Positions 1 through 64,000 of a stretch of DNA of 64,000 bases are shown here, one piece after another. The notes beneath the pieces are model-generated. The model worked only from the letters and a program-made list of their open reading frames with translations, had not been told where the DNA came from and searched no databases. Every line of letters begins with the position of its first letter. Position 1 is the stretch's first letter. The stretch comes from the human T2T-CHM13v2.0 reference genome, Homo sapiens. The DNA is taken from the NCBI GenBank assembly GCA_009914755.4, contig CP086569.2, positions 27,744,001 to 27,808,000 of the forward strand, read 5' to 3'. Both the position numbers and the translations under genes were made by a program.

Positions 1-157
1 ATCGCATGGAAGGATATCAAATCAAATGGAATCGAACGAAAATTATGAATCCAATGGAATCGAAAGTATTCCAAAGAAGAGATTCGAAAGGCATTTAATG
101 GAATGGAAAGGTATGCAGTGAAGTGGAGTGGAGTGGAGTGGATTGTTTTAGAGTGAA

Positions 158-3100
158 ATGGGGTGGATTGGAACACTATGTGGTGGAGTGGAGTGTAGTG
201 GATCGGAGTGGAGTGCCGTGGAGTGGACTAGAGTAGGGTGGAGTGGAGTGCATTGGAGTGGAATGGAGTGGAGTGGGGTGGAATGGAAAGGAATGGTATC
301 AAATCGCATGGTAATGAATCAAATGGAATCAAATGGAATGAAATAATGGAATCGAAGGCAAACGAATGGAATCGAATTGCACTGATTCTACTGACTTCGA
401 AGAAAATGAAATGAAATGCGGTGAAGTGGAGTGGAGTGGAATGTATTAGGGTGGAATGGAATTGAATGGTGTGGAGTGGAGTGGAGTGCCCAGGAGTGGA
501 ATGGGAAGAAATGGAATTGAACGGAGTGGAGTGGAGTGGAATGGAGGGTAATGGAGTGGAATGGAGTGGAGTGGAGTAGAGTGGAATGGGTTGGAGTGGA
601 ATGCAGAGGACAGGAGTGGAGTGTGGTGGACTGGAGTTGAGTGGAGTTGAGTGGAGTGCATTGGATTGAAATAGAGCGGAGCAGAGTGGAATGGAATTGA
701 ATCACATGGTATTGAATCAAATCGAATGGAATTAAATCGAATGAAAAAACGGAATCAAAAGCAAACGAATGGAGTCAAACCACATTGGTTAGACTGACAT
801 CGAATAATATCAAAAGAAATGCGGTGAAGTGGAGGGGAGTGTACTGAAATGGGGTGGAATGAAATTGAATGGAGTGGAGTGGAGTGGAGTCTACTGGAGT
901 GGAATGGAATGGAATGGAAAGGAATGGAATAGAATGGAGTGAAGTGCAGTGCAGTGAAATGGAGTGGAAAGGAATGGAATGGAAAGAATTGAATCAAATG
1001 GAATCGAAGTGAATCGAATCTAATGAAATTGAACGCAAAAAATGGAATGAGTAGAATCGAAAAAGATGGATTCAAATGGCAACAAATAAAATTGAATGGA
1101 ATGCGGTGAGGTGGAGGGGATTGGAATGGAGTTGAATGGAATGTGGTGTAATTGAATTGAATGGAGTGGAGTGGAGTGAACTGGAGTGGAATGGAATGGA
1201 ATGGGCAGGCATGGAATTGAAAGGCGTGGAGTGGAGTTGAATTGAGAGGAGTGGAATGGAATAGGGTGGATTTTGGTGGAGAATAATGGAAAAGAGTGGA
1301 GTGGAATGGAACGGAATGGAGTGGAGTGGAATGGAATGGAATTGAGTGAAGTGGAGTGTAGTGGAATGGAGAGTAATGGAGTGGAGTGGACTGGAGTGGA
1401 GTAGATTGCAATGCATTGGACTGTAGGGGATAGAAGTGGCTTGGACTCCATAGGAGTGGAGTGGAATGGAATGGAATGGAGTGGAATGGACTGGAACGGA
1501 ATGGAATGGAATGGATTCAAATGGCAGGGAATCAAATCGAATTGAATCATATTGAATCAAGTCGAATCGAGTGGAGGAAAGAAATCGAATGAAATCGAAT
1601 GGAATGAATTGAATGGAGTCGAATGTCAACCATGGAATCAAAAGTAATGTGGTAAAGTGGAGTGGAGTGTTATGGAGTGGAATGGAATGGGGTGACATGG
1701 AATTGAATACAGTGGAGAGGAGTGGAGTGGATTGGGCTAGAGTTGAACGGAAAGGGAAGGAATGGAACTAAATGGAGTGGAGTGGAATGGAATGGAATGG
1801 AATGGAATGGAATGGAATGGAACGGAATGGCGTGGAATGGAATCGAATCACATGGAACTGAATGAAAACGAATTGAATGAATTTGAATGGAGAAAATGGA
1901 ATCAAATGGAATCAAATCGAACGGCTTCGAATGTCATTGAATGGAATCGAAAGGAATGCAGTGAGGTGGGGTTGAGTGGAATGGACTGGAATGGAATGGG
2001 ATGAATGGAATTGAATGGAGTGGAGTGGAATGGAATGGAATGGAAAGGACTGGAATTGAACAAAATGGAGTGTAGTAGAATGGAGTGGATTGGAGTGGAG
2101 TGCAGAGGATTGCAGTGGAATGAAGAGGAGTGTAGTTGAATGGAATGGAATGTATGGAATGTACTGGAATAGAATGGATAAGAAAGGAATGGAATGGAAT
2201 CGCATGGAATTGAATAGAATCAAATCGAATTGAATAGAATCAAATGGAAAAAATGGAGTCAAATGGAATCGAATGGCATAGAATCGAACGGTTTTGAATG
2301 GCAGTGAATGGAAACGAATGGAATGCGATGAAGTGGAGCAGAGTGGAGTGGAAAGGAGTGCAATGGAATAGGGTGGAACTGAATTTAATGGAACAGAGTG
2401 GATTGGAGTGGACTGGAGTGGAATGGAGTGGGAAGGAATGGGATTGAAAGGAGTGGCGTGCAGTGGAGTTGAGTGGCATGGAGTGGAGTGGAGTGGAATG
2501 GAGTGGAATGGAATGGAGTGGAATGGAGTGGATTGGAATGGAATGGAGTGCAGGGGAATGGAATGGAATGGTATAGAGTGGACAGGAATGCAGTGGAGAG
2601 GATTGGAATGGAATGGAATGGAATGGAATGGAACTGAATGGACTGGAATGGAATGGAATAGAATGGAATCACAGGGAATCAAATTGGATTGAATCGAATC
2701 GAATGGAAAAAATGAAATCAAATGAAATTGAATGGAATCGAAATGAATGTAAACAATGGAATCCAATGGAATCAAATGGAATCGAATCATATGGTTTTGA
2801 ATGGCGTAAAATGAAATCGCAAGGAAGGCAGTGAATTGGAGTCGAGTTGAATAGAGAGGAATGAATTGGAATGGAGTGGAGTGGAATGGAGTGGATTCCA
2901 GTGGAGTGGAGTGGATTGGATTGGAATGGAATGGAATAGACTGGATTGGAGTGGTGTAGAGTGCAGTGGATTGGAATGGAGAGGAATGGAGTGGAGTGAA
3001 GTCGAGTTGAGTGGAATGGAATGGAGTGGAGTAGAGTGGAATGCAAAAGAATGAAGTGGATTGGTGTGGAATGGAATGGCGTGGAATGGAGTGGAATAGA

Positions 3101-3268
3101 ATGGAATGGAATCGCATGGAAGGATATCAAATCCAATGGAATCGAACGAAAATTATGAATCCAATGGAATCGAAAGGATTCCAAAGGAACGGATTCGAAA
3201 GGCATTTAATGGAATGGAAAGGTATGCAGTGAAGGTTAGTGGAGTGGAGTGGATTGTTTTAGAGTGAA
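158..3268 (+). repeat. HOR unit 1 (alpha1, variant a), 3111 bp
   Basis: Anchor at 158; the next anchor is at 3269; about 99% identical to unit 2 judging from near-identical pseudo-ORFs. Confidence 0.8.
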
Positions 3269-6200
3269 ATGGGGTGGATTGGAACACTATGTGGTGGAGT
3301 GGAGTGTAGTGGATCGGAGTGGAGTGCCGTGGAGTGGACTAGAGTGGGGTGGAGTGGAGTGCATTGGAGTGGAATGGAGTGGAGTGGGGTGGAATGGAAT
3401 GGAATGGCATCAAATGGCATGGTAATGAATCAAATGGAATCAAATGGAATGAAATAATGGAATCGAAGGCAAACGAATGGAATCGAATTGCACTGATTCT
3501 ACTGACTTCGAAGAAAATGAAATGAAATGCGGTGAAGTGGAGTGGAGTGGAATGTATTAGGGTGGAATGGAATTGAATGGTGTGGAGTGGAGTGGAGTGC
3601 CCAGGAGTGGAATGGGAAGAAATGGAATTGAACGTAGTGGAGTGGAGTGGAATGGAGGGTAATGGAGTGGAATGGAGTGGAGTGGAGTAGAGTGGAATGG
3701 GTTGGAGTGGAATGCAGAGGACAGGAGTGGAGTGTGGTGGACTGGAGTGGAGTGGAGTTGAGTGGAGTGCATTGGATTGAAATAGAGCGGAGCAGAGTGG
3801 AATGGAATTGAATCACATGGTACTGAATCAAATCGAATGGAATTAAATCGAATGAAAAAACGGAATCAAAAGCAAACGAATGGAGTCAAACCACATTGGT
3901 TAGACTGACATCGAATAATATCAAAAGAAATGCGGTGAAGTGGAGGGGAGTGTACTGAAATGGGGTGGAATGAAATTGAATGGAGTGGAGTGGAGTGGAG
4001 TCTACTGGAGTGGAATGGAATGGAATGGAAAGGAATGGGATAGAATGGAGTGAAGTGCAGTGCAGTGAAATGGAGTAGAAAGGAATGGAATGGGAAGAAT
4101 TGAATCAAATGGAATCGAAGTGAATCGAATCTAATGAAATTGAACGCAAAAAATGGAATGAGTAGAATCGAAAAAGATGGATTCAAATGGCAACAAATAA
4201 AATTGAGTGGAATGCGGTGAGGTGGAGGGGATTGGAATGGATTTGAATGGAATGTGGTGTAATTGAATTGAATGGAGTGGAGTGGAGTGGACTGGAGTGG
4301 AATGGAATGGAATGGGCAGGCATGGAATTGAAAGGCGTGGAGTGGAGTGGAATTGAGAGGAGTGGAATGGAGTAGGGTGGATTGTGGTGGAGAATAATGG
4401 AAAAGAGTGGAGTGGAATGGAACGGAATGGAGTGGAGTGGAATAGAATGGAATTGAGTGAAGTGGAGTGTAGTGGAATGGAGAGTAATGGAGTGGAGTGG
4501 ACTGGAGTGGAGTAGATTGCAGTGCATTGGACTGTAGGGGATAGAAGTGGCTTGGACTCCATAGGAGTGGAGTGGAATGGAATGGAATGGAGTGGAATGG
4601 ACTGGAACGGAATGGAATGGAATGGATTCAAATGGCAGGGAATCAAATCGAATTGAATCATATTGAATCAAGTTGAATCGAGTGGAGGAAAGAAATCGAA
4701 TGAAATCGAATGGAATGAATTGAATGGAGTCGAATGTCAACCATGGAATCAAAAGTAATGTGGTAAAGTGGAGTGGAGTGTTATGGAGTGGAATGGAATG
4801 GGGTGACATGGAATTGAATACAGTGGAGAGGAGTGGAGTGGATTGGGCTAGAGTTGAACGGAAAGGGAAGGAATGGAACTAAATGGAGTGGAGTGGAATG
4901 GAGTGGAATGGAATGGAATGGAATGGAATGGAATGGAATGGAATGGAACGGAATGGCGTGCAATGGAATCGAATTACATGGAACTGAATGAAACCGAATT
5001 GAATGAAATTGAATGGAGAAAATGGAATCAAATGGAATCCAATCGAACGGATTCGAATGTCATTGAATGGAATCGAAAGGAATGCAGTGAGGTGGGGTTG
5101 AGTGGAATGGAGTGGAATGGAATGGGATGAATGGAATTGAATGGAGTGGAGTGGAATGGAATGGAATGGAAAGGACTGGAATTGAACAAAATGGAGTGTA
5201 GTAGAATGGAGTGGATTGGAGTGGAGTGCAGGGGAGTGCAGTGGAATGAAGAGGAGTGTAGTTGAATGGAATGGAATGTATGGAATGTACTGGAATAGAA
5301 TGGATAAGAAAGGAATGGAATGGAATCGCATGGAATTGAATAGAATCAAATCGAATTGAATAGAGTCAAATGGAAAAAATGGAGTCAAATGGAATCGAAT
5401 GGCATAGAATCGAACGGTTTTGAATGGCAGTGAATGGAAACGAATGGAATGCGATGAAGTGGAGCAGAGTGGAGTGGAAAGGAGTGCAATGGAATAGGGT
5501 GGAACTGAATTTAATGGAACAGAGTGGATTGGAGTGGACTGGAGTGGAATGGAATGGGAAGGAATGGGATTGAAAGGAGTGGCGTGCAGTGGACGGGAGT
5601 GGCATGGAGTGGAGTGGAGTGGAATGGAGTGGAATGGAATGGAGTGGAATGGAGTTGATTGGAATGGAATGGAGTGCAGAGGAATGGAATGGAATGGTAT
5701 AGAGTGGACAGGAATGGAGTGGAGCGGATTGGAATGGAATGGAATGGAATGGAATGGAACTGAGTGGACTGGAGTGGAATGCAATAGAATAGAATCACAG
5801 GGAATCAAATTGGATTGAATCGAATCGAAAGGAAAAAAATGAAATCAAATGAAATTGAATGGAATCGAAATGAATGTAAACAATGGAATCCAATGGAATC
5901 AAATGGAATAGAATCAAATGATTTTGAATGGCGTAAAATGAAATCGCGAAGAAGGCAGTGAATTGGAGTGGAGTGGTATAGAGAGGAATGAATTGGAATG
6001 GAGTGGATTGGAATAGAGTGGATTCCAGTGGAGTGGAGTGGATTGGATTTTAATGGAATGGAATAGACTGGATTGGAGTGGTGTAGATTGCAGTGGATTG
6101 GAGTGGAGAGGAATGGAGTGGAGTGAAGTCGAGTTGAGTGGAATGGAATGGAGTGGAGCAGAGTGGAATGCAAAAGAATGAAGTGGATTGGTGTGGAATG

Positions 6201-6396
6201 GAATGGCGTGGAATGGAGTGGAATAGAATGGAATGGAATCGCATGGAAGGATATCAAATCCAATGGAATCGAACGAAAATTATGAATCCAATGGAATCAA
6301 AAGGATTCCAAAGGAACGGATTCGAAAGGCATTTAATGGAATGGAAAGGTATGCAGTGAAGTGGAGTGGAGTGGAGTGGATTGTTTTAGAGTGAAA
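3269..6396 (+). repeat. HOR unit 2 (alpha1, variant a), 3128 bp
   Basis: Anchors at 3269 and 6397; contains a longer pure (GGAAT) tract (~8 units at ~4905-4946) than unit 1. Confidence 0.8.
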
Positions 6397-9300
6397 TGGG
6401 GTGGATTGGAACACTATGTGGTGGAGTGGAGTGTAGTGGATCGGAGTGGAGTGCCGTGGAGTGGACTAGAGTGGGGTGGAGTGGAGTGCATTGGAGTGGA
6501 ATGGAGTGGAGTGGGGTGGAATGGAATGGAATGGCATCAAATCGCATGGTAATGAGTCAAATGGAATGAAATAATGGAATCGAAGGCAAACGAATGGAAT
6601 CGAATTGCACTGATTCTACTGACTTCGAGGAAAATGAAATGAAACGCGGTGAAGTGGAGTGGAGTGGAATGTATTAGGGTGGAATGGAATTGAATGGTGT
6701 GGAGTGGAGTGGAGTGCCCAGGAGTGGAATGGGAAGAAATGGAATTGAACGGAGTGGAGTGGAGTGGAATGGAGGGTAATGGCGTGGAATGGAGTGGAGT
6801 GGAGTAGAGTGGAATGGGTTGGAATGGAATGCAGAGGACAGGAGTGCAGTGTGGTGGACTGGAGTGGAGTGGAGTTGAGTGGAGTGGATTGGATTGAAAT
6901 AGAGCGGAGCAGAGTGGAATGGAATTGAATCACATGGTATTGAATCAAATCGAATGGAATTAAATCGAATGAAAAAACGGAATCAAAAGCAAACGAACGG
7001 AGTCAAACCACATTGGTTAGACTGACATCGAATAATATCAAAAGAAATGCGGTGAAGTGGAGTGGAGTGTACTGAAATGGGGTGGAATGAAATTGAATGG
7101 AGTGGAGTGGAGTGGAGTCTACTGGAGTGGAATGGAATGGAATGGAAAGGAATGGAATAGAATGGAGTGAAGTGCAGTGCAGTGAAATGGAGTGGAAAGG
7201 AATGGAATGGAAAGAATTGAATCAAATGGAACCGAAGTGAATCGAATCTAATGAAATTGAACGCAAAATGTGGAATGAGTAGAATGGAAAAAGATGGATT
7301 CAAATGGCAACAAATAAAATTGAATGGAATGCGGTGAGGTGGAGGGGATTGGAATGGATTTGAATGGAATGTGGTGTAATTGAATTGAATGGAGTGGAGT
7401 GGAGTGAACTGGAGTGGAATGGAATGGAATGGGCAGACATGGAATTGAAAGGCGTGGAGTGGAGTGGAATTGAGAGGAGTGGAATGGAGTAGGGTGGATT
7501 GTGGTGGAGAATAATGGAAAAGAGTGGAGTGGAATGGAACGGATTGGAGTGGAGTGGAATGGAATGGAATTGAGTGAAGTGGAGTGTAGTGTAATGGAGA
7601 GTAATGGAGTGGAGTGGACTGGAGTAGAGTAGATTGCAATGCATTGGATTGTAGGGGATGGAAGTGGCTTGGAGTCCATAGGAGTGGAGTGGAATGGAAT
7701 GGAATGGAGTGGAATGGACTGGAACGGAATGGAGTGGAATGGATTTAAATGGCAGGGTATCAAATCGAATTGAATCATATTGAATCAAGTCGAATCGAGT
7801 GGAGGAAAGAAATCGAATGAAATCGAATGGAATGAATTGAATGGAGTCGAATGTCAACCATGGAATCAAAAGTAATGTGGTAAAGTGGAGTGGAGTGGAG
7901 TGTTATGGAGTGGAATCGAATGGGGTGACATGGAATTGACTACAGTGGAGAGGAGTGGAGTGGATTGGGCTAGAGTGGAACGGAAAGGGAAGGAATGGAA
8001 CTAAATGGAGTGGAGTGGAATGGAGTGGAATGGAATGGAATGGAATGGAATGGAACGGAATGGAGTAAAATGGAATCGAATCACATGGAACTGAATGAAA
8101 CCGAATTGAATGAAATTCAATGGAGAAAATGGAATCAAATGGAATCAAATCGAACGGATTCGAATGTCATTGAATGGAATCGAAAGGAATGCAGTGAGGT
8201 GGGGTTGAGTGGAATGGAGTGGAATGGAATGGGATGAATGGAATTGAATGGAGTGGAGTGGAATGGAATGGAATGGAAAGGACTGGAATTAAACAAAATG
8301 GAGTGTAGTAGAATGGAGTGGATTGGAGTGGAGTGCAGGGGAGTGCAGTGGAATGAAGAGGAGTGTAGTTGAATGGAATGGAATGTATGGAATGTACTGC
8401 AATAGAATGGATAAGAAAGGAATGGAATGGAATCGCATGGAATTGAATAGAATCAAATCGAATTGAATAGAATCAAATGGAAAAAATGGAGTCAAATGGA
8501 ATCGAATGGCATAGAATCGAACGGTTTTGAATGGCAGTGAATGGAAACGAATGGAATGCGATGAAGTGGAGCGCAGTGGAGTGGAAACGAGTGCAATGGA
8601 ATAGGGTGGAACTGCATTTAATGGAAAAGAGTGGATTGGAGTGGACTGGAGTGGAATGGAATGGGAAGGAATGGGATTGAAAGGAGTGGCTAGCAGTGGA
8701 GTGGAGTGGCATGGAGTGGAGTGGAGTGGAATGGAGTGGAATGGAATGGAGTGGAATGGAGTGGATTGGAATGGAATGGAGTGCAGAGGAATGGAATGGA
8801 ATGGTATAGAGTGGACAGGAATGGAGTGGAGCGGATTGGAATGGAATGGAATGGAATGGAATGGAACTGAATGGACTGGAATGGAATGGAATAGAATAGA
8901 ATCACAGGGAATCAAATTGGATTGAATCGAATCGAAAGGAAAAAAATGAAATCAAATGAAATTGAATGGAATCGAAATGAATGTAAACAATGGAATCCAA
9001 TGGAATCAAATGGAATCGAATCAAATGGTTTTGAATGGCGTAAAATGAAATCGCGAAGAAGGCAGTGAATTGGAGTGGAGTGGAATAGAGAGGAATGAAT
9101 TGGAATGGAGTGGATTGGAATAGAGTGGATTCCAGTGGAGTGGAGTGGATTGGATTTTAATGGAACGGAATAGACTGGATTGGAGTGGTGTAGATTGCAG
9201 TGGATTGGAGTGGAGAGGAATGGAGTGGAGTGAAGTCGAGTTGAGTGGAATGGAAAGGAGTGGAGCAGAGTGGAATGCAAAAGAATGAAGTGGATTGGTG

Positions 9301-9502
9301 TGGAATGGAATGGCGTGGAATGGAGTGGAATAGAATGGAATGGAATCGCATGGAAGGATATCAAATCCAATGGAATCGAAGGAAAATTATGAATCCAATG
9401 GAATCGAAAGGATTCCAAAGGAACGGATTCGAAAGGCCTTTAATGGAATGGAAAGGTATGCAGTGAAGTGGAGTGGACTGGAGTGGATTGTTTTAGAGTG
9501 AA
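6397..9502 (+). repeat. HOR unit 3 (alpha1, variant b), 3106 bp
   Basis: Anchors at 6397 and 9503; pseudo-ORFs 6983..7639, 7248..7778 and 7300..7869 are identical to those of unit 4. Confidence 0.8.
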
Positions 9503-12500: not shown

Positions 12501-12609
12501 TCCAATGGAATCGAAAGGATTCCAAAGGAACGGATTCGAAAGGCCTTTAATGGAATGGAAAGGTATGCAGTGAAGTGGAGTGGACTGGAGTGGATTGTTT
12601 TAGAGTGAA
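9503..12609 (+). repeat. HOR unit 4 (alpha1, variant b), 3107 bp
   Basis: Anchors at 9503 and 12610; essentially identical to units 3 and 5. Confidence 0.8.
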
Positions 12610-15600: not shown

Positions 15601-15701
15601 AATCGAAAGGATTCCAAAGGAACGGATTCGAAAGGCATTTAATGGAATGGAAAGGTATGCAGTGAAGTGGAGTGGAGTGGAGGGGATTGTTTTAGAGTGA
15701 A
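12610..15701 (+). repeat. HOR unit 5 (alpha1, variant b grading into c), 3092 bp
   Basis: Anchors at 12610 and 15702; the 5' part is identical to units 3 and 4, while the 3' part carries variants shared with units 6 and 7. Confidence 0.75.
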
Positions 15702-18700: not shown

Positions 18701-18802
18701 GAATCGAAAGGATTCCAAAGGAACGGATTCGAAAGGCATTTAATGGAATGGAAAGGTATGCAGTGAAGTGGAGTGGAGTGGAGGGGATTGTTTTAGAGTG
18801 AA
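15702..18802 (+). repeat. HOR unit 6 (alpha1, variant c), 3101 bp
   Basis: Anchors at 15702 and 18803; pseudo-ORFs 15772..16254, 16289..16609, 16554..17084 and 17209..17601 are identical to their unit-7 counterparts. Confidence 0.8.
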
Positions 18803-21800: not shown

Positions 21801-21907
21801 CAATGGAATCGAAAGGATTCCAAAGGAACGGATTCGAAAGGCATTTAATGGAATGGAAAGGTATGCAGTGAAGGTTAGTGGAGTGGAGTGGATTGTTTTA
21901 GAGTGAA
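18803..21907 (+). repeat. HOR unit 7 (alpha1, variant c), 3105 bp
   Basis: Anchors at 18803 and 21908; identical-protein pseudo-ORFs recur from unit 6 at +3101 bp. Confidence 0.8.
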
Positions 21908-52300: not shown

Positions 52301-52702
52301 GTAATGGAGTGAAGTGGAATGTAGTGGATTCCAGTGGAGTGGAGTGGATTGGATTGGATTGGAATGGAATAGATTGGATTGGAGTGGTGCAGAGTGGACT
52401 GGACTGGAGTGGAGAGGAATGGAGTGGAGTGAAGTCGAGTTGAGTGGAATGGAATGGAGTGGAGCAGAGTGGAATGCAAAACAATGAAGTGGATTGGTAT
52501 TGAATGGAATGGCATGGAATGGAGTGGAATAGAATGGAATGGAATCGCATGGAAGGATATCAAATCAAATGGAATCGAACGGAAAATTATGAGTCCAATG
52601 GAATAGAAAGGATTCTAAAGGAATGGATTCGGAAGGCATTGAATGGAATGGAAAGGAATGCAGTGAAGTGGAGTGGAGTGGAGTGGATTGTTTTAGAGTG
52701 AA
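46349..52702 (+). repeat. Dimeric HOR copy 2 (~6354 bp): alpha-II 46349-49519, beta-I 49520-52702
   Basis: Alpha anchor 46349 and beta anchor ~49520. The 'MKRNG' ORF (48344) and 'MEWIGLEWNGKGRNG...' (51144) recur 6362 and 6353 bp after their counterparts in copy 1. Confidence 0.8.
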
Positions 52703-55700
52703 ATGGGTTGGATTGGAACTCTATGGGGTGGAGTGGAGCGAAGTGGATTGGATTGGAATGGAGTGCAATGGACTGGAGTGGAGTGGAATGGATTGGAGTG
52801 GAGTGTAGTGGATCGGAGTGGAGTGCCGTGTAGTGGACTAGAGTGGGGTGGAGTGGAGTGCTTTGGAGTGGAATGGGGTGGAGTGGGGTGGAATGGAATG
52901 GAATGGCATCAAATCGCATGGTAATGAATCAAATGGAATCAAATGGAACGGAAATAATGGAATCGAAGGCAAACGAATGGAATCGATTGCACTGATTCTA
53001 CTGACTTCGAAGAAAATGAAATGAAATGCGGTGAAGTGGAGTGGAGTGGAATGTATTAGGGTGGAATGGAATTGAATGGTGTGGAGTGGGGTGGAGTGCC
53101 CAGGAGTGGAATGGGAAGAAATGGGATTGAACGGAGTGGAGTGGAGTGGAATGGAGGGTAATGGAGTGGAATGGAGTGGAGTGGAGTAGAGTGGAATGGG
53201 TTGGAGTGGAATGCAGAGGACAGGAGTGGAGTGCGGTGGACTGGAGTGGAGTGGAGTTGAGTGGAGTGGATTGGATTGAAATAGAGCGGAGCAGAGTGGA
53301 GTGGAATTGAATCACATGGTATTCAATCAAATCGAATGGAATTAAATCGAATGAAAAAATGGAATCAAAAGCAAACGAATGGAGTCAAACCACATTGGTT
53401 AGACTGACATCAAATAATATCAAAAGAAATGTGGTGAAGTGGAGTGGAGTGTAATGAAATGGGGTGGAATGAAATTGAATGGAGTGGAGTGGAGTCTACT
53501 GGAGTGGAATGGAATGGAAAGGAAAGGAATGGAATAGAATGGAGTGAAGTGCAGTGCATTGAAATGGAGTGGAAAGGAATGGAATGGAATGGAATGGAAT
53601 GGAATCAAATGGATTCGAAGTGAATCGAATCTAATGAAATTGAACGGAAAAAATGGAATGAGTAGAATCGAAAAAGATGGATTCAAATGGCAACAAATAG
53701 AATTGAATGGAATGCGGTGAGGTGGAGGGGATTGGAATGGAGTTGAATGGAATGGGTTGTAATTGAATTGAGTGGAGTGGATTGGATTGGAGTGGACTGG
53801 AGTGGAATGGAATGGCATGGGCAGGAATGGAATTGAAAGGGTTGAAGTGGAATTGAGTGGTGTGGATCGGAGTAGACTGCATTGTAGTGGATTGGAGTGG
53901 AAAGAAGTGGAGTGGAATGGAATGGAATGCAATGGAGTGGAGTGGAATGGAGTGGAATGGAGAGTAATGGAGTGGAGTGGACTGGAGCGGAGTGGAGTAT
54001 AGTGCATTGGACTGTAGGGGATTGAAGTGGCTTGGAGTGCAATGGAGTGGAGTGGAATGGAATGGAATGGAGTGGAATGCACTGGAATGAATTGGAATGA
54101 AATGGATTGGAATCGCATGGAATCGAATAGAATCGAATCATATAGAATTGAGTGAAATCGAATGGAAAAAAGAAATCGAAAGAAATTAAAAGGAATGAAT
54201 CGAATGGAGTTGAATGTCATCCAGTGGAATTGAAAGGAATGCGGTAAAGTGGAGTGGAGTGGATTTAAATGGAGTGGAATGGAATGGGGAGACATGGAAT
54301 TGAATAGAGTGGAGTGGAGTGGATTGGACTGGAGTGGAATGGAATGGAATGGGAAGGAATGGAACTGAACGGAGTGGAGTGGAGTGGAGTGGAATGGAGT
54401 AGAATGTAATGGAGTGGAATGGAATCGAATCCCTTGGAATTGAATGAAATCGAATCGAATGAAATCAGATGGAAAAAATGGAATCAAATGGAATCAAATC
54501 AAATGAATTCGAAAGGCATTGAAAGGAATCGAATTGAATGCGGTGAGGTGGAGTTGAGTTGAATGAAGTGGAATGGAATGATGTGTAATGGAATTGAATG
54601 GAGTGGAGAGGAGTGGAATGGAATGGAATGGAAAGAATGGAAATGAACAAAGTGGAGTGGAGTGGAATGGAGTGGATTGGAGTGCAGTGAAGCGGAGTGA
54701 AGTGCAATGAAGAGGAATGGCGTGGAGAGGAATGGAATGGAATGTTATGGAATGTACTGGAATGGAATGGATAAGAATGGAATGGAATGGAATCACATGG
54801 AATACAATAGAACTGAATGGAATTCAATGGAATCAAATGGGAAAAATGGAGTCGAAAGGAATCGAATGGAATTGAATCGAATGGTTTTAAATGGTGGTGA
54901 ATGGAAACACAAGGAAGGCGATGAAGTGGAGTGGAGTGGAATGGAAAGGAGTGCAATGGAATGGGGTAAAATTGAATGTAATGCAATGGAGTGGATTGGA
55001 GTGGACTGGAGTGGAATGGGAAGGAATGGGAAGGAATGGAATTGAAAGGAGTTGAGTAGAGTGGAATGGAGTGGAGTGCAGTGGAATGGAGTGGCAAGAA
55101 AAGGAGTGGAATGGAGTGGATTGAAATGGAGTTGAATGCAGAGGAATGGAATGGAATGGAATAGAGTAGACAGGAATGGAGTGGAGTGGGTTGGAATGGA
55201 ATGCACTGGAGAGGAATGGAAGATAATGGACTGGACTGGACTGGAATGTAATGGAATCGCAGGGAATGGAATCGAATCGAACTGAATAGAATCAAATGGA
55301 AAAATGGAATCAAATGGAATCGAATGGAATTGGATTGAATGTAAAAAATGGAATCAAATGGAATGGAATCGAATGGTTTTGAATGGCATCAAATGAAATC
55401 GAATGGAAAGTAGTGAATTGGAGTGGAGTGGAATGGAGAGGAATGCATTGGAATGGAGTTCAATGGAGTGGAGTGGAATGGAGTGGATTAGAGTGGAGTG
55501 GATAGGATTGGAATGGAATGGAATGGATTTGCAGTGGAGTGGTGCAGAGTGGAGTGGACTGGAGTGGAGAGGAATGGAGTGGAGTGAAGTCGAGTTGAGT
55601 GGAATGGAATGAAGTGGAGTGGAGTGGAATGCAGTGGAATGCAGTAGAATGAAGTGGATTGGAATGGAATGGAATGGCGTGGAATGGAGTGGAATGGAAT

Positions 55701-58700
55701 GGAATGGAGTGGAATGGAATGGAATGGAATAGCATGGAATGAAATCGAATCAAATCGAATGCAAGGGAAAATTATGAATCAAATGTAATCGAATGGATTC
55801 CAAATGAGTGGATTCGAATGGCATTGCATGGAGTGGAAAGGAATGCGGTGAAGTGGAGTGGAGTGGAATGTATTGGATTGGAATGGGGTGGATTGGAATT
55901 CTATGGAGTGGAGTGGAGTGAAGTGGATTGGAGTGGAATGGAGTGGAATGAACTGGAGTAGAGTGGAATGGATTGGAGTGGAGTGTAGTGGAATGGAGTG
56001 GAGTGGTGTGGAGTGGAGTAGAGTGGGTTGGGGTGGAGTGGATTGGAGTAGAATAGAGTGGAGTGGAGTGTAATGTAATGGAATGGAATCAAATCACATG
56101 GTAACGAATCAAATCGAATGGAAAAAATGGAATTGAATGCAAACGAATGGAATGGAATCGCACTGATTCTACTGAGTTCGAATAAAATCAAATGAAATGC
56201 GGTGAAGTGGAATGGAGTGGAATGAAATGGGTTGGAAAGGAATTCAATGGTGTGTAGAGGAGTGGAGTGTCCTGGAGTGGAATGGAATGGAATGGAATGG
56301 GAAGGAGAGGAATTTTACGGAGTGGAGTGGAATGGAGCGGACTAGAGTGTAATGGAGTGGAGTGGAGTGGAATGGGTTGGAGTGGAGTGCAGTGGACAGG
56401 AGTGGAGTGCCGTGGACTGGAGTGGAGTGGATTGGATTGCAGTGGAAAAGAGTGGAGCGGAGTGGAATGGAATGGAATGTAATGGAATCGCATGGTATTG
56501 AATCAAATCCAACTGAATTAAATCGAATGGAAAAAATGGAATCGAATTCCAACAAATGGAATCGAATCGCGTCGTTTCGACTGACATTGAATAAAATCAA
56601 AAGAAATGCGTTGAAGTGGAGTGGAGTGGAATGAAATGGGGTGGAATGGAATTGAATGGAGTTGATTGGAGTGGAGTCGACTGGAGTGGAACGGAATGGA
56701 ATGGGAAGGAATGGAATTAAATGGAGTGGAGTGCAGTACAGTGAAATGGAGTGGAATGGTATGGAATGGAAAGGAAGGGAATTGCATGGAATTGAATCGA
56801 ATCGAATCTAATGTAATTGAACGGAAAAAAATGGAACTGAATAGAATCAAAAACAATGGATTCGACTGGCATCTAATAGAATGAAATGGAATGCGGTGAG
56901 GTGGAGGGGATTGGAATGGAGTTGAATGGAATGGGGTGTAATTGAATTGAATGGAGTGGAGTGGAGTGAACTGGAGTGGAATGGAATGGAATGGGCAGGC
57001 ATGGAATTGAAAGGCGTGGAGTGGAGTGGAATTGAGAGGAGTGGAATGGAGTAGGGTGGATTGTAGTGGAGAGTATTGGAAAAGAGTGGAGTGGAATGGA
57101 ACGGAATGGAGTGGAGTGGAATGGAATGGAATTGAGTAAAGAGGAGTGGAATGGAGAGTAATGGAGTGGAGTGGACTGGAGTGGAGTAGATTGCAGTGCA
57201 TTTTACTGTAGGGGATAGAAGTGGCTTGGAGTGCAATGGAGTGGAGTGGAATGGAATGGAATGGAGTGGAATGGACTGGAACGGAATGGAATGGAATGGA
57301 TTTAAAAGGCAGGGAATCAAATCGAATTGAATCATATGGAATCAAGTCGAATCGACTGGAGGAAAGAAATCCAATGAAATCGAATGGAATGAATTGAATG
57401 GAGTCGAATGTCAACCATGGAATCGAAAGGAATGTGGTAAAGTGGAGTGGAGTGGAGTGTTATGGAGTGGAATGGAATGGGGTGACATGGAATTGAATAC
57501 AGTGGAGAGGAGTGGAGTGGATTGGGTTAGAGTGGAATGGAAAGGGAAGGAATGGAACTGAATGGAGTGGAGTGGAATGGAGTGGAATGGAATGGAATGG
57601 AATGGAATGGAATGGAATGGAATGGAGTGGAATGGAATCGAATCACATGGAACTGAATCAAATCGAATTGAATGAAATTGAATGGAGAAAATGGAGTCAA
57701 ATGGAATCAAATCGAATGGATTCGAATGACATTGAATGGAATGGAAAGGAATGCAGTGAGGTGGAGTTGAGTGGAATGGAGTGGAATGGAATGGGATGAA
57801 TGGAATTGAATGGAGTGGAGTAGAATGGAATGGAAAGGAAACGAAAGGAATTGAATTGAACAAAATGGAGTGGAGTAGAATGGAGTGGATTGGTGTGGAG
57901 TGCAGGGGAGTGCAGTGGAATGAAGAGGAGTGTAGTTGAATGGAATGGAATGGTATGGAACGTACTGGAATGGAATGGATAAGAGTGGAATGGAATGGAA
58001 TCGCATGGAATTGAATAGAATCAAATCGAATTGAATAGAAACAAATGGAAAAAATGGAGTCAAATGGAATCGAATGGCATAGAATCGAACGATTTTGAAT
58101 GGCAGTGAATGCAAACGAATGGAATGCGATGAAGTGGAGCGGACTGGATTGGAAAGGAGTGCAATGGAATAGGGCGGAACTGAATTTAATGGAGCAGAGT
58201 GGATTGGAGTGGACTGGAGTGTAAAGGAATGGGAAGGAATGTGATTGAAAGGAGTGGCGTGCAGTGGATTGGAGTGGCATGGAGTGGAGTGGAGTGGAAT
58301 GGAGTGGAATGGAATGGAGTTGAATGGAGTGGATTAGAATGGAATGGAGTGCAGAGGAATGGAATGGAATGGTATAGAGTGGACAGGAAAGGAGTGGAGT
58401 GGATTGGAATGGAATGGAATGGAAAGGAATGGAACTGAATGGACTGGAATGGAATGGAATAGAATGGAATTGCAGGGAATCAAATTGGATTGAATCGAAT
58501 CGAATGGAAAAAGTGAAATCAAATGAAATTGAATGGAATCGTATTGAATGTAAAAAATGGAATCCAATGGAATCAAATGGAATTCAATCAAATGGTTAGG
58601 AATGGTGAAAAATGAAATCGCATGGAAGGCAGTGAATTGGAGTGGAGTGGAATAGAGAGGAATGAATTGGAATGGAGTGAAGTGGAATGGAGTGGATTCC

Positions 58701-59070
58701 AGTGGAGTGGAGTGGATTGGATTGGAATGGAATGGAATAGATTAGATTGGAGTGGTGCAGAGTGGACTGGACTGGAGTGGAGAGGAATGGAGTGGAGTGA
58801 AGTCGAGTTGAGTGGAATGGAATGGAGTGGAGCAGAGTGGAATGCAAAAGAATGAAGTGGATTGGTATGGGATGGAATGGCGTGGAATGGAGTGGAATAG
58901 AATGGAATGGAATCGCATGGAAGGATATCAAATCAAATGGAATCGAACGGAAAATTATGAATCCAATGGAATCGAAAGGATTCTAAAGGAATGGATTCGA
59001 AAGGCATTGAATGGAATGGAAAGGAATGCAGTGAAGTGGAGTGGAGTGGAGTGGATTGTTTTAGAGTGAA
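52703..59070 (+). repeat. Dimeric HOR copy 3 (~6368 bp): alpha-II 52703-55883, beta-I 55884-59070
   Basis: Alpha anchor 52703 and beta anchor ~55884. 'MKRNG' at 54707. 'MEWIGLEWNGKGRNG...' at 57512 is identical to the copy at 44791. Confidence 0.8.
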
Positions 59071-62000
59071 ATGGGTTGGATTGGAACTCTATGGGGTGGA
59101 GTGGAGCGAAGTGGATTGGATTGGAATGGAGTACAATGGACTGGAGTGGAGTCGAATGGATTGGAGTGGAGTGTAGTGGATCGGAGTGGAGTGCTGTGGA
59201 GTGGACTAGAGTGGGGTAGAGTGGAGTGCATTGGAGTGGAATGGGGTGGAGTGGGGTGGAATGGAATGGAATGGCATCAAATCGCATGGTAATGAATCAA
59301 ATGGAATCAAATGGAACGGAAATAATGGAATCGAAGACAAACGAATGGAATCGAATTGCACTGATTCTACTGACTTGGAAGAAAATGAAATGAAATGCGG
59401 TGAAGTGGAGTGGAGTGGAATGTATTAGGGTGGAATGGAATTGAATGGTGTGGAGTGGGGTGGAGTGCCCAGGAGTGGAATGGGAAGAAATGGGATTGAA
59501 CGGAGTGGAGTGGAGTGGAATGGAGGGTAATGGAGTGGAATGGAGTGGAGTGGAGTAGAGTGGAATGGGTTGGAGTGGAATGCAGAGGACAGGAGTGGAG
59601 TGCGGTGGACTGGAGTGGAGTGGAGTTGAGTGGAGTGGATTGGATTGAAATAGAGTGGAGCAGAGTGGAATGGAATTGAATCACATGGTATTGAATCAAA
59701 TCGAATGGAATTAAATCGAATGAAAAAATGGAATCAAAAGCAAACGAATGGAGTCAAACCACATTGGTTAGACTGACATCGAATAATATCAAAAGCAATG
59801 TGGTGAAGTGGAGTGGAGTGTAATGAAATGGGGTGGAATGAAATTGAATGGAGTGGAGTGGAGTGGAGTCTACTGGAGTGGAATGGAATGGAAAGGAAAG
59901 GAATGGAATAGAATGGAGTGAAGTACAGTGCATTGAAATGGAGTGGAATGGAATGGAATGGAATGGAATCAAATGGAATCGAAGTGAATCGAATCTAATG
60001 AAATTGAACGGAAAAAATGGAATGAGTAGAATCGAAAAAGATAGATTCAAATGGCAACAAGTAGAATTGAATGGAATGCGGTGAGGTGGAGGGGATTGGA
60101 ATGGAGTTGAATGGAATGGGGTGTAATTGAATTGAATGGAGTGGATTGGATTGGAGTGGACTGGAGTGGAATGGAATGGCATGGGCAGGAATGGAATTGA
60201 AAGGGTTGAAGTGGAATTGAGTGGTGTGGATCGGAGTAGACTGCATTGTAGTGGATTGGAGTGGAAAGAAGTGGAGTGGAAGGGAATGGAATGCAATGGA
60301 GTGGAGTGGAATGGAGTGGAATGGAGAGTAATGGAGTGGAGTGGACTGGAGCGGAGTGGGGTGTAGTGCATTGGACTGTAGGGATTTGAAGTGGCTTGGA
60401 GTGCAATGGAGTGGAGTGGAATGGAATGGAATGGAGTGGAATGCACTGGGATGAATTGGAATGAAATGGATTGGAATCGCATGGAATCAAATAGAATAGA
60501 ATCATATAGAATTGAGTGAAATCGAATGGAAAAAAGAAATCGAAAGAAATTAAAAGGAATGAATCGAATGGAGTTGAATGTCATCCAGTGGAATTGAAAG
60601 GAATGCGGTAAAGTGGAGTGGAGTGGATTTAAATGGAGTGGAATCGAATGGGGAGACATGGAATTGAATAGAGTGGAGTGGAGTGGATTGGACTGGAGTG
60701 GAATGGAATGGAATGGGAAGGAATGGAACTGAACGGAGTGGAGTGGAGTGGAGTGGAATGGAGTAGAATGCAATTGAGTGGAATGGAATCGAATCCCTTG
60801 GAATTGAATCAAATCGAATCGAATGAAATCAGATGGAAAAAATGGAATCAAATCAAATGAATTCGAAAGGCATTGAAAGGAATCGAATTGAATGCGGTGA
60901 GGTGGAGTTGAGTTAAATGAAGTGGAATGGAATGATGTGTAATGGAATTGAATGGAGTGGAGAGGAGTGGAATAAAATGGAATGGAAAGAATGGAAATGA
61001 ACAAATTGGAGTGAAGTGGAATGGAGTGGATTGGAGTGCAGTGAAGCGGAGTGAAGTGCAATGAAGAGGAATGGCGTGGAGAGGAATGGAATGGAATGTT
61101 ATGGAATGTACTGGAATGGAATGGATAAGAATGGAATGGAATGGAATCACATGGAATACAATAGAATTGAATGGAATTCAATAGAATCAAATGGGAAAAA
61201 TGGAGTCGAATGGAATCGAATGGAATTGAATCGAATGGTTTTAAATTGTGGTGAATGGAAACACAAGGAAGGCGATGAAGTGGAGTGGAGTGGAATGGAA
61301 AGGAGTGCCATGGAATGGGGTAAAATTGAATTTAATGCAATGGAGTGGATTGGAGTGGACTGGAGTGGAATGGGAAGGAATGGGAAGGAATGGAATTGAA
61401 AGGAGTCGAGTAGAGTGGAATGGAGTGGAGTGCAGTGGAATGGAGTGGCAAGAAACGGAGTGGAATGGAGTGGATTGAAATGGAGTTGAATGCAGAGGAA
61501 TGGAATGGAATGGAATAGAGTGGACAGGAATGGAGTGGAGTGGGTTGGAATGGAATGGACTGGAGAGGAATGGAAGATAATGGACTGGACTGGACTGGAA
61601 TGTAATGGAATCGCAGGGAATGGAATCCAATCGAATTGAATAGAATCAAATGGAAAAATGGAATCAAATGGAATCGAATGGAATTGGATTGAATGTAAAA
61701 AATGGAATCAAATGTAATGGAATCAAATGGTTTTGAATGGCATCAAATGAAATCGAATGGAATGTAGTGAATTGGAGTGTAGTGGAATGGAGAGGAATGG
61801 ATTGGAATGGAGTTCAATGGAGTGGAGTGGAATGGAGTGGATTAGAGTGGAGTGGAGTGGATAGGATTGGAATGGAATGGAATGGATTGCAGTGGACTGG
61901 TGCAGAGTGGAGTGGACTGGAGTGGAGAGGAATGGAGTGGAGTGGTCGAGTTGAGTGGAATGGAATGATGTGGAGTGGAGTGGAATGCAGTGGAATGCAG

Positions 62001-64000
62001 TAGAATGAAGTGGATTGGAATGGAAAGGAATGGCGTGGAATGGAGGGGAAACGAATGGAATGGCGTGGAATGGAGTGGAATGGAATGGAATGGAGTGGAA
62101 TGGAATGGAGTGGAATAGCATGGAATGAAATCAAATCAAATCGAATGCAATGGAAAATTATGAATCAAATGTAATCGAATGGATCCCAAATGAGTGGATT
62201 CGAATGGCATTGCATGGAGTGGAAAGGAATGCGGTGAAGTGGAGTGGAGTGGAATGTATTGGATTGGAATGGGGTGGATTGGAATTCTATGGAGTGGAGT
62301 GGAGTGAAGTGGATTGGAGTGGAATGGAGTGGAATGAACTGGAGTAGAGTGGAATGGATTGGAGTGGAGTGTAGTGGAATGGAGTGGAGTGCTGTGGAGT
62401 GGAGTAGAGTGTGGTGGGGTGGAGTGGATTGGAGTAGAATAGAGTGGAGTGGAGTGTAATGGAATGGAATGGAATCAAATCACATGGTAACGAATCTAAT
62501 CGAATGGAAAAAATGGAATTGAATGCAAACGAATGGAATGGAATTGCACTGATTCTACTGAGTTCGAATAAAATCAAATGAAATGCGGTGAAGTGGAATG
62601 GAGTGGAATGAAATGGGTTGGAAACTAATTCAATGGTGTGGAGAGGAGTGGAGTGTCCTGGAGTGGAATGGAATGGAATGGAATGGGAAGGAGAGGAATT
62701 TTACGGAGTGCAGTGGAATGGAGCAGAATAGAGTGTAATGGAGTGGAGTGGAGTGGAATGTGTTGGAGTGGAGTGCAGTGGACAGGAGTGGAGTGCCGTG
62801 GACTGGAATGGAGTGGAGTGGATTGCAGTGGAAAAGAGTGGAGCGGAGTGGAATGAAATGGAATGTAATGGAATCGCATGGTATTGAATCAAATCCAACT
62901 GAATTAAATCGAATGGAAAAAATGGAATCGAATGCCAACAAATGGAATCGAATCGCGTCGTTTCGACTGACATTGAATAAAATCAAAAGAAATGCGTTGA
63001 AGTGGAGTGGAGTGGAATGAAAGGGGGTGGAATGGAAATGAATGGAGTTGATTGGAGTGGAGTCGACTGAAGTGGAACGGAATGGAATAGGAAGGAATGG
63101 AATTAAATGGAGTGGAGTGCAGTACAGTGAAATGAGGTGGAATCGTATGGAATGGAGTGGAATGGAATTGCATGGAATTGAATCGAATCGAATCTAATGT
63201 ATTTGAAAGGAAAAAAATGGAACTGAATAGAATCGAAAACAATGGATTCGACTGGCATCTAATAGAATGAAATGGAATGCGGTGAGGTGGAGTGGATTTT
63301 AATGGAGTTGAATGGAATGGGGCGTAATTGAATTGAGTGGAGTGGAGTGGAGTGAACTGGAGTGGAATGGAATGGAATGGGCAGGCATGGAATTGAAAGG
63401 CGTGGAGTGGAGTGGAATTGAGAGGAGTGGAATGGAGTAGGGTGGATTGTAGTGGAGAGTATTGGAAAAGAGTGGAGTGGAATGGAACGGATTGGAGTGG
63501 AGTGGAATTGAATGGAATTGAGTAAACAGGAATGGAATGGAGAGTAATGGAGTGGAGTGGACTGGAGTGGAGTAGATTGCAGTGCATTTTACTGTAGGGG
63601 ATAGAAGTGGCTTGGAGTGCAATGGAGTGGATTGGAATGGAATGGAATGGAGTGGAATGGACTGGAACGGAATGGAATGGATTTAAAAGGCAGGGAATCA
63701 AATCGAATTGAATCATATGGAATCAAGTAGAATCGACTGGAGGAAAGAAATCCAATGAAATCGAATGGAATGAATGGAATGGAGTCGAATGTCAACCATG
63801 GAATCGAAAAGAATGTGGTAAAGTGGAGTGGAGTGGAGTGTTATGGAGTGGAATGGAATGGGGTGACAGGGAATTGAATACAGTGGACAGGAGTGGAGTG
63901 GATTGGGTTAGAGTGGAATGGAATGGAATGGAATGGAATGGAATGGAACGGAATAGAGTGGAATGGAATCGAATCACATGGAACTGAATCAAATCGAATT
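59071..64000 (+). repeat. Dimeric HOR copy 4 (partial): alpha-II 59071-~62267, beta-I from ~62268 to the window end
   Basis: Alpha anchor 59071, 'MKRNG' at 61061, beta anchor ~62268. The copy is truncated by the window edge. Confidence 0.75.

What the first reader, a model, noticed from the sequence alone, without database searches (positions are those of the whole stretch)
1..64000. One satellite array, three successive higher-order-repeat organisations (3.1 kb monomeric HOR, then a mosaic transition zone, then a 6.36 kb dimeric HOR)
The anchor motif spacing is 3.09-3.13 kb from 158 to 21908, then 3164, 5725 and 6084 bp, then settles at 6363, 6354 and 6368 bp (alpha anchors at 39986, 46349, 52703, 59071). 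The beta-type anchor ('ggggtgtattggaattctatgg') first appears at ~30721 and then alternates with the alpha anchor. All units keep the same orientation. This pattern is what unequal crossing-over produces at the edge between two homogenised HOR families. The window therefore captures the boundary where a dimeric HOR evolved from, or collides with, a monomeric ancestor.
Basis: seen in the sequence. Interest (0 to 1): 0.6.

Follow-up and report, generated by a model that had tools for sequence, protein, structure and literature searches.

The report
Satellite repeat halved by unit recombination
The whole window is one head-to-tail array of a primate (most likely human) GGAAT/GGAGT "satellite III" repeat in which a 6.36 kb two-part unit gives way to a 3.1 kb unit that is a recombinant of those two parts; this is an ordinary, if unusually clean, example of how satellite DNA evolves by unequal exchange.

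Summary
Motif searches, k-mer offsets and lag autocorrelation reproduce the anchors (2 bp offset) and the periods: 3107 bp for 1-28178, about 6100 bp for 28179-39985, 6363 bp for 39986-64000. All 64 kb is one strand-pure pentamer satellite with no insertions.

- The array divides into 21 units of about 3.1-3.2 kb.
- In the right-hand dimer, alpha and beta units are 87% alike, while copies of one type are 97-99% alike.
- The left-hand 3.1 kb "monomer" (U1-U9) is a clean chimera. Its first ~1 kb is alpha-type (96.7% to alpha, 83% to beta). The rest is beta-type (about 95% to beta, 86% to alpha).
- All of U1-U10 and U12 switch in the same ~77 bp interval (Fisher p about 1e-61 for U1-U9).
- The monomer is therefore most simply derived from the dimer by one alpha x beta exchange and then amplified. 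It is not the dimer's ancestor.
- The "transition zone" is two copies of a variant dimer. Its alpha-position unit has a second, out-of-register beta-to-alpha switch.

The family looks like human acrocentric HSat3 (an HSat3A4 marker 24-mer is present), but the locus could not be named. The kind of event is well known, so interest is low.

The parts
1..159 (+). 3' end of a truncated 3.1 kb hybrid unit (U0). The array continues beyond the left edge of the window.
   Evidence: The sequence at 1-159 recurs at 3112-3270 and at every later unit end. The first anchor is at 160.
160..25014 (+). Eight 3.09-3.13 kb hybrid units (U1-U8). Each is alpha-type for the first ~0.93 kb and beta-type afterwards. 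All lack a 65 bp stretch just after the anchor.
   Evidence: U1-U7 are 97.4-99.7% identical to each other, and U8 is about 96% to them. Painting is shown. The 65 bp gap is measured against U9.
1094..1171 (+). Alpha-to-beta switch interval (BP1) in U1. The same interval recurs in U2-U10 and U12 at 4205-4282, 7322-7399, 10429-10506, 13531-13608, 16628-16705, 19729-19806, 22843-22920, 26010-26087, 29174-29251 and 34914-34991.
   Evidence: The best single switch lies between alignment columns 1035 and 1117 in every one of these units. In U1-U9, alpha/beta sites are about 123/7 to the left and about 28/219 to the right (Fisher p 1e-59 to 1e-63). U10 has 123/11 and 35/121 (p 1.6e-35) and U12 has 126/8 and 37/161 (p 2.1e-46), because their right-hand parts also hold the alpha-type tail. 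Alpha and beta are nearly identical across these ~70-77 bp.
25015..28178 (+). U9, the least derived hybrid unit (3164 bp). It has the same switch but keeps the 65 bp (25039-25103) that U1-U8 lack. Its beta part groups with the full beta units U11 and U13.
   Evidence: In one search the {U9, U11, U13} group has 0.915 bootstrap support in segment 2.
28179..30722 (+). U10, the alpha-position unit of the first variant dimer. It runs alpha 5', then beta middle, then alpha tail. It also has a 361 bp deletion relative to U12, at 29581/29582.
   Evidence: Painting. The gap is located. U10 is 97.8% identical to U12.
30292..30345 (+). Second switch (BP2) in U10. Beta offset about 2400-2450 joins alpha offset about 2742-2795, which is out of register by about 300-340 bp.
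   Evidence: Local alignments show the unit is beta-like up to 30345 and alpha-like (96%) from 30292 to its end.
30723..33903 (+). U11, a full-length beta-type unit of an older or local variant.
   Evidence: It is beta-type along its whole length. It is 97.8% identical to U13 and about 95.8% to U15/17/19.
33904..36823 (+). U12, the alpha-position unit of the second variant dimer. It has the same three-part mosaic as U10 but without the 361 bp deletion.
36393..36446 (+). Second switch (BP2) in U12, the same junction as in U10.
36824..39985 (+). U13, a full-length beta-type unit of the older or local variant.
39986..62270 (+). Three and a half canonical 6.35-6.37 kb dimers: alpha = U14, U16, U18, U20 and beta = U15, U17, U19.
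   Evidence: Alpha units are 97.1-99.1% identical to each other and beta units 98.6-99.1%. Alpha versus beta is 86.4-87.6%. The lag peak is 6363 bp.
62271..64000 (+). Truncated beta unit (U21). The array continues beyond the right edge of the window.
   Evidence: The beta anchor is at 62271 and painting is all beta-type.

Best explanation
The window is a piece of one primate GGAAT/GGAGT pentamer satellite array of the satellite III / HSat3 kind. It is built in nested layers:
- 5 bp repeats;
- eight composite sub-units of 285-501 bp, each a G-poor 'aatcgaatgga'-like block followed by a GGAGT/GGAAT run;
- a 3.1-3.2 kb unit.

The older organisation is a 6.36 kb dimer of two such units, alpha and beta. 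These diverged by about 13-16% along their whole length.

The proposed sequence of events (the structures are shown; the order of events and the crossover mechanism are inferred):
1. One in-register exchange between an alpha and a neighbouring beta unit created a hybrid unit, alpha 0-1.04 kb plus beta 1.1-3.2 kb. The exchange could have been an unequal crossover, an intrachromatid deletion or a long conversion tract. It fell inside a ~77 bp stretch where alpha and beta are almost identical.
2. That 3.16 kb hybrid (form U9) was amplified in tandem.
3. It then lost 65 bp and was homogenised into the 3.1 kb array (U1-U8).
4. At the border, a second exchange, out of register by about 0.3 kb, joined a hybrid's beta part to an alpha tail. 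This produced a shortened alpha-position unit that is again followed by beta.
5. That variant dimer duplicated (U10+U11, U12+U13), and U10 lost a further 361 bp.
For: - Unit-by-unit identity matrix: U1-7 are 97.4-99.7% alike, alpha units 97-99%, beta units 98.6-99.1%, and alpha versus beta 87%. U1-7 sit in between, at 90% to alpha and 92% to beta.
- Windowed consensus comparison shows A is alpha-like over alignment columns 200-1000 and beta-like from column 1000 on.
- 418 alpha/beta-informative sites show a single sharp a-to-b switch in U1-U10 and U12.
- An alignment-independent check with 200 bp windows gives the same picture.
- The switch falls in the same interval in all 11 units. In U1-U9 the sites are 123/7 versus 28/219, with Fisher p about 1e-61.
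- Segment identities: segment 1, A to alpha 96.7% and to beta 83.1%; segment 2, A to beta 95.0% and to alpha 85.8%.
- Segment trees are discordant. A nests with alpha-type units in segment 1 and inside the beta-type clade in segment 2. U9 groups with the full beta units U11/U13 at 0.915 support.
- Alpha-beta divergence is similar in all segments (83.8, 86.3 and 88.5% identity), so alpha and beta look like anciently diverged whole units.
- The 65 bp stretch is present in alpha, beta, U9, U10 and U12 and absent only in U1-8. This polarises U1-8 as derived.
- The second switch and the deletions are mapped.
- Independent metagenome contigs contain the same family. All five contigs that read past the switch point go from alpha-type to beta-type. 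Three also show a different alpha-to-beta junction, so alpha x beta exchange is recurrent and not an artefact of this assembly.
Against: - Polarity rests on parsimony. With two segments and two types each, the parents could formally have been a5b3 and an unseen b5a3.
- Gene conversion between neighbours can mimic the similarity gradient (U9 > U8 > U1-7) and the nesting of U9 with U11/U13.
- No reciprocal product (beta 5' + alpha 3') was seen.
- No outgroup species or second haplotype was available.
- The two transitions themselves (U9/U10 and U13/U14) have no independent read support here.
- No other data set searched gave a match to the part of the alpha 3' segment beyond offset ~1360.
Confidence: 0.75

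Rival explanations
1. The 3.1 kb monomer is ancestral, and the 6.36 kb dimer arose from it when alternate copies diverged and were then amplified as pairs.
For: The monomer is intermediate in overall identity, at 90% to alpha and 92% to beta, while alpha versus beta is 87%. A common ancestor would also look like this.
Against: - The intermediacy is segmental, not uniform. About 97% of one parent's sequence abuts about 95% of the other's at one sharp point.
- Divergence in place would need beta to change by 16% only in its first kilobase and alpha by 14% only in the remainder, with both boundaries at the same 77 bp.
- The segment trees are discordant.
- The 65 bp deletion marks U1-8 as derived.
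Confidence: 0.06
2. Complementary-parent or collision scenario. Two different monomeric arrays, a5b3 and an unseen b5a3 (or an unrelated donor array), met, and alpha and beta are the recombinants.
For: This is formally allowed by the two-segment, two-type pattern. Acrocentric satellite III subfamilies are known to be exchanged between chromosomes (PMC6862356).
Against: - It needs at least two products and an unobserved parent, against one event.
- Alpha and beta alternate physically, so a single unequal exchange between neighbours gives a5b3 with correct flanks.
- Alpha-beta divergence is even along the unit.
- A second, independent alpha-to-beta junction exists in other contigs.
Confidence: 0.1
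3. Assembly artefact. The change of period reflects a mis-join or collapse of separate satellite arrays in the source assembly.
For: Satellite arrays are the hardest regions to assemble, and no reads were available to check this window.
Against: - All junctions are in register and seamless, and no unique or foreign sequence is present.
- Units next to the border are graded intermediates. U9 keeps the 65 bp stretch, and the beta part of U9 is closest to U11/U13.
- The hybrid junction is present in independent contigs.
Confidence: 0.05

Closest known systems
Human satellite 3 (classical satellite III) of the acrocentric short arms, the GGAAT + GGAGT type; Altemose subfamily HSat3A4 / pTRS-47 group as a lead
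   Same: - It is a pentamer GGAAT-derived array with a large share of GGAGT, as described for acrocentric satellite III (PMC7767330; PMC6862356).
- The published HSat3A4-specific 24-mer occurs exactly 4 times, and the marker 24-mers of the other 13 subfamilies occur 0 times.
- Related contigs carry an Alu-like fragment and TCGGGTTG motifs.
   Different: - The window has no classical CAACCCGA(A/G)T / TCGGGTTG motif at all.
- The unit lengths here (3.1 and 6.36 kb) are not the 1366 bp reported for pTRS-47.
- Species, chromosome and subfamily could not be verified with these tools.
Kilobase-scale nested tandem repeats of HSat2/3, such as DYZ1 (HSat3A6, 3.6 kb) and the chr1 HSat2 1.77 kb unit
   Same: Long units built from diverged pentamer repeats and repeated head to tail with high copy-to-copy identity. 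The term 'nested tandem repeat' was coined for exactly this (bioRxiv 10.1101/2021.07.12.452052; PMC4022460).
   Different: The unit length and sequence differ. Here two unit lengths coexist in one array, and one is demonstrably a recombinant of the other's two halves.
Alpha-satellite higher-order-repeat structural variants and hybrid units made by unequal crossing-over
   Same: The process is the same: exchange between misaligned, diverged neighbours gives a chimeric unit and changes the repeat period, and local amplification and homogenisation follow (own knowledge; HOR variants are mentioned).
   Different: This is not alpha satellite. The sub-units are not discrete equal-length monomers (285-501 bp), so 'HOR' applies only loosely.

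Membership tests
Satellite III / HSat3 (GGAAT-derived pentamer satellite) | The base repeat is a diverged (GGAAT)n / (CATTC)n pentamer array. | tested here: met
   TRF reports one array at 855-63974 with period 5 and consensus TGGAA, at 64% matches. GGAAT-phase 5-mers are the most frequent.
Satellite III / HSat3 (GGAAT-derived pentamer satellite) | Interspersed classical 10-mer CAACCCGA(A/G)T (= A(T/C)TCGGGTTG). This feature comes from my own knowledge, and not all subfamilies need carry it. | tested here: not met
   CAACCCGA and TCGGGTTG have 0 occurrences on either strand. The motif is present in the related contig L008 at 2150-2215.
Satellite III / HSat3 (GGAAT-derived pentamer satellite) | A mixture of GGAAT and GGAGT motifs, as described for acrocentric satellite III subfamilies. 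| tested here: met
   GGAGT is counted 2227 times and GGAAT 2830 times. GGAGTGGAGT occurs 579 times and GGAATGGAAT 601 times. The description comes from PMC6862356 and PMC7767330.
Satellite III / HSat3 (GGAAT-derived pentamer satellite) | Comes from a human or great-ape genome. | tested here: inconclusive
   - No eukaryotic genome collection was available.
- Indirect evidence: 12 metagenome contigs are 93-98% identical.
- One contig carries an Alu-like fragment.
- One contig comes from a bee virome data set, where human contamination is the likely source.
HSat3A4 subfamily (Altemose et al. 2014) | Carries the subfamily-specific 24-mer AATTCCATTCCTTCCCATTCCATT. | tested here: met
   There are 4 exact copies (31523, 37629, 50332, 56695), all in beta-type units, and 21 copies with up to 1 mismatch. 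The marker 24-mers of the other 13 subfamilies have 0 exact copies. The 24-mer is close to the simple repeat, so this is a lead and not proof.
HSat3A4 subfamily (Altemose et al. 2014) | Clusters with the subfamily's reference reads by 5-mer composition, and is located on chromosomes 13, 14, 15, 21, 22 or Y. | not testable with these tools
   Neither the reference read database nor the T2T annotations are held.
Higher-order repeat in the alpha-satellite sense | The unit is made of a discrete number of monomers of similar length. | tested here: not met
   The eight sub-units per unit measure 285-498 bp in alpha and 309-501 bp in beta. Their G-poor blocks are only 70-88% alike.
Nested tandem repeat (NTR; Altemose et al. 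2021) | A multi-kilobase unit built from shorter diverged repeats of inconsistent length, repeated in tandem with high identity. | tested here: met
.
Recombinant (hybrid) repeat unit from unequal exchange | A single in-register switch between two parental unit types, located in a stretch where the two are identical. | tested here: met
   The same ~77 bp interval is used in 11 units.
Recombinant (hybrid) repeat unit from unequal exchange | The reciprocal product (beta 5' + alpha 3') exists somewhere in the population. | not tested
   None is present in the window.

The most novel reading that the evidence does not exclude
The window may catch, in physical order, the step-by-step replacement of a dimeric acrocentric HSat3 repeat by its own recombinant monomer. 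The order would be canonical dimer, then variant dimer, then proto-hybrid U9, then the 65 bp-deleted homogenised array. If the locus is the GGAGT-rich HSat3 block on human 14p/15p, these junctions would be unique markers inside a region implicated in exchange between acrocentric chromosomes and in Robertsonian translocation breakpoints.
Probability: 0.15. Interest if true: 0.4.

Novelty: new member of a known kind. Interest (0 to 1): 0.2.

Why it matters
The finding adds no new biology. It is a clean worked example of how a satellite's repeat period can halve through one exchange between diverged neighbouring units, with the intermediates still lying next to each other.

In practice, three kinds of feature are rare unique landmarks inside an otherwise unmappable array:
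- the shared 77 bp switch;
- the second, out-of-register junction;
- the 65 bp and 361 bp deletions.

These could be used to validate assemblies, to type haplotypes, or to trace exchange between acrocentric short arms if the locus is confirmed there.

Tried and rejected
- TRF (maximum period 500) found only the 5 bp period. The kilobase periods had to be measured with k-mer offsets and lag autocorrelation.
- A loose motif for sub-unit starts matched everywhere and was dropped. G-poor blocks were used instead.
- Rfam gave no match in the window or in four related contigs.
- An Alu-fragment search in the window gave nothing.
- No window-unique insert was found.
- Two scans of bacterial/archaeal genome contigs and one of viral contigs for anchor or alpha-3' markers gave 0 hits.
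- Exact look-ups of two minus-strand open frames found nothing on record.
- A protein homology search with a 477 aa open frame returned only low-complexity look-alikes at 31-59% identity, which was no help in naming the organism.
- A full-text search for four distinctive 19-21-mers found no paper.
- The original satellite III clone papers (PMC1682629, PMC1821104) are not held.
- Coding potential was rejected. The long minus-strand frames are a trivial consequence of stop-free CATTC repeats.
Full report
**1. What the sequence is**

The whole window is a single simple-sequence-derived satellite.
- TRF reports one array (855-63974) of period 5 with consensus TGGAA, at 64% matches.
- Base composition is constant: GC 0.43 and GC skew +0.69 to +0.76 in every 2 kb window.
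- No 14-mer is shared with the reverse complement, so every copy has the same orientation.
- No 200 bp bin is rich in window-unique 16-mers, so there is no inserted foreign element.
- Rfam finds nothing.

**2. The observation**

- Alpha-type anchors lie at 160, 3271, 6398, 9505, 12612, 15704, 18805, 21910, 25015, 28179, 33904, 39986, 46351, 52705 and 59073.
- Beta-type anchors lie at 30723, 36824, 43164, 49522, 55885 and 62271.
- Shuffles give 0 expected matches.
- A 20-mer offset histogram and lag autocorrelation give periods of 3107 bp for 1-28178, 6101 bp for 28179-39985 and 6363 bp for 39986-64000.

**3. Anatomy**

Taking both anchor types as unit starts gives 20 complete units, U1-U20, plus two truncated ones. 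Their lengths are 3092-3198 bp, except U10 (2544 bp) and U12 (2920 bp).

All-against-all global alignment shows these groups:

| Comparison | Identity |
|---|---|
| U1-U7 among themselves | 97.4-99.7% |
| U8, U9 to U1-U7 | about 96% |
| Alpha units (U14, 16, 18, 20) among themselves | 97.1-99.1% |
| Beta units (U15, 17, 19) among themselves | 98.6-99.1% |
| Alpha versus beta | about 87% |
| U10 versus U12 | 97.8% |
| U11 versus U13 | 97.8% |
| U11/U13 to beta | 95-96% |

Inside each unit there are eight G-poor blocks (aatcgaatgga-like) separated by GGAGT/GGAAT runs.
- This gives sub-units of 285-501 bp whose G-poor blocks are 70-88% alike.
- Because the sub-units are unequal, the structure fits the published definition of a nested tandem repeat better than that of a higher-order repeat.
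- Indels between units are almost all multiples of 5 bp.

**4. The key result**

U1-U7 are intermediate between alpha (90%) and beta (92%), but the intermediacy is segmental.
- Consensus comparison in 200-column windows shows the 3.1 kb unit is alpha-like over columns about 200-1000 and beta-like from about 1000 to the end.
- Painting every unit at 418 alpha/beta-informative sites shows one sharp a-to-b switch in U1-U10 and U12. U11 and U13 are beta-type throughout.
- An alignment-independent check gives the same picture. It aligned 200 bp windows semi-globally to one alpha and one beta reference.
- Using only substitution sites, the best switch lies between alignment columns 1035 and 1117 in all eleven units. 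In U1-U9, alpha/beta counts are about 123/7 to the left and about 28/219 to the right, with Fisher p about 1e-61.
- In that ~77 bp interval alpha and beta are nearly identical.
- Segment identities agree:

| Segment | A to alpha | A to beta |
|---|---|---|
| Segment 1 | 96.7% | 83.1% |
| Segment 2 | 85.8% | 95.0% |
| Tail | 87.3% | 93.7% |

- Neighbour-joining trees of the two segments are discordant in the expected way. U1-U8 nest with alpha-type units in segment 1. They nest inside the beta-type clade in segment 2, where U9 groups with the full beta units U11/U13 at 0.915 support.

**5. The transition zone**

- U10 and U12 share the first switch.
- They also have a second one. Beta-type sequence up to beta offset about 2400-2450 is joined to alpha-type sequence from alpha offset about 2742-2795 onward. 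The junctions are at window 30292-30345 and 36393-36446, and the tail is about 96% identical to alpha.
- This junction is out of register by about 0.3 kb, which is why these units are short. It restores an alpha tail, and each unit is duly followed by a beta unit.
- U10 has a further 361 bp deletion relative to U12 (35322-35682).
- U1-U8 share a 65 bp deletion relative to U9 (25039-25103).
- The 65 bp stretch is present in alpha, beta, U9, U10 and U12, so U1-U8 are the derived state.

**6. Interpretation**

The simplest history starts from an old alpha-beta dimer whose halves are about 13-16% diverged, and evenly so in all segments.
1. One in-register alpha x beta exchange created a hybrid unit.
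2. The hybrid (form U9) was amplified.
3. It lost 65 bp and was homogenised into U1-U8.
4. A second, out-of-register hybrid x alpha exchange at the border created the variant dimer.
5. The variant dimer duplicated (U10+U11, U12+U13).

The structures are shown. The order of events and the crossover mechanism, as opposed to a conversion tract, are inferred.

A formal alternative cannot be excluded without outgroups. In it, the parents were a5b3 and an unseen b5a3. It needs more events.

An assembly artefact is unlikely. The junctions are seamless and the neighbouring units are graded intermediates. This cannot be checked without reads.

**7. Related sequences**

- One metagenome scan with a 23-mer anchor found 12 contigs. 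They are 93-98% identical to the left-hand units over their best-matching stretches; one short match (L006) is about 88%.
- All five contigs that read past the switch point go from alpha-type to beta-type.
- In each of three contigs, one of the two units uses a different junction: alpha to offset about 1360, then beta from about 1690. This is the same place as U10's deletion. Alpha x beta exchange is therefore recurrent, and the hybrid is not peculiar to this assembly.
- Contig L008 carries an Alu-like fragment and TCGGGTTG motifs, which points to a primate.
- Contig L002 belongs to a bee virome data set, where human contamination is the likely source.

**8. Comparison with what is known**

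- Satellite III of the human acrocentric short arms is described as a mix of GGAAT and GGAGT motifs.
- GGAGT-dense HSat3 regions in T2T-CHM13 are reported only on 14p and 15p.
- The HSat3A4-specific 24-mer of Altemose et al. occurs exactly four times here, all in beta-type units. The marker 24-mers of the other 13 subfamilies are absent.
- The classical CAACCCGA(A/G)T motif is absent from the window.

These are leads. Species, chromosome and subfamily could not be tested with the tools available.

**9. Verdict**

The phenomenon is a standard one: unequal exchange reshaping a satellite's repeat unit. Interest is low, and the main value is as a set of landmarks and a tidy example.

Noticed in passing
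whole window; e.g. 25039-25103, 26191-26210, 46882-46892: Length differences between units are almost all multiples of 5 bp (10, 15, 20, 65). This points to pentamer-register slippage or exchange. The 361 bp deletion in U10 is the exception.
   Followed up: partly
whole window, + strand: The TEAD-type core GGAATG occurs 2052 times (about one per 31 bp), all on one strand. The heat-shock-element half-site pair GAAnnTTC does not occur at all. The classical satellite III motif CAACCCGA/TCGGGTTG is also absent.
   Followed up: no
window minus strand, e.g. 41155-42588, 59754-61190, 1912-3117: There are stop-free frames of up to 478 aa as listed ORFs, and 525 aa as open stretches. This is a trivial consequence of CATTC repeats, but it is the sort of sequence that yields spurious 'proteins' in contaminated assemblies. 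The database search found only low-complexity look-alikes.
   Followed up: yes
L008 1205-1262 and 2150-2215: A metagenome contig of this satellite family contains an Alu-like fragment (…cccagcctggagtgcagtg…). Further on it has classical TCGGGTTG-type satellite III. It is either an array border elsewhere in the genome or a chimeric short-read assembly.
   Followed up: partly
L001 (reverse complement) 900-2300; L003 1-1300; L007 (reverse complement) 1-1400: Three independent contigs carry a second kind of alpha/beta recombinant unit: alpha-type to offset about 1360, then beta-type from about 1690. Each lies next to a unit of the window's 3.1 kb type. This may be another dimeric organisation elsewhere in the genome.
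   Followed up: partly
L002 (PEHZ01030902.1): A 1.5 kb contig that is 93% identical to the window's units sits in a bee virome metagenome (PEHZ00000000). It is probably human DNA contamination of that data set.
   Followed up: partly
6398-12611 (U3, U4): U3 and U4 are 99.7% identical with no gaps, the most recent duplication in the window. U6/U7 are 99.1% identical. Within the 3.1 kb array the copies therefore form small, very young sub-clusters.
   Followed up: no
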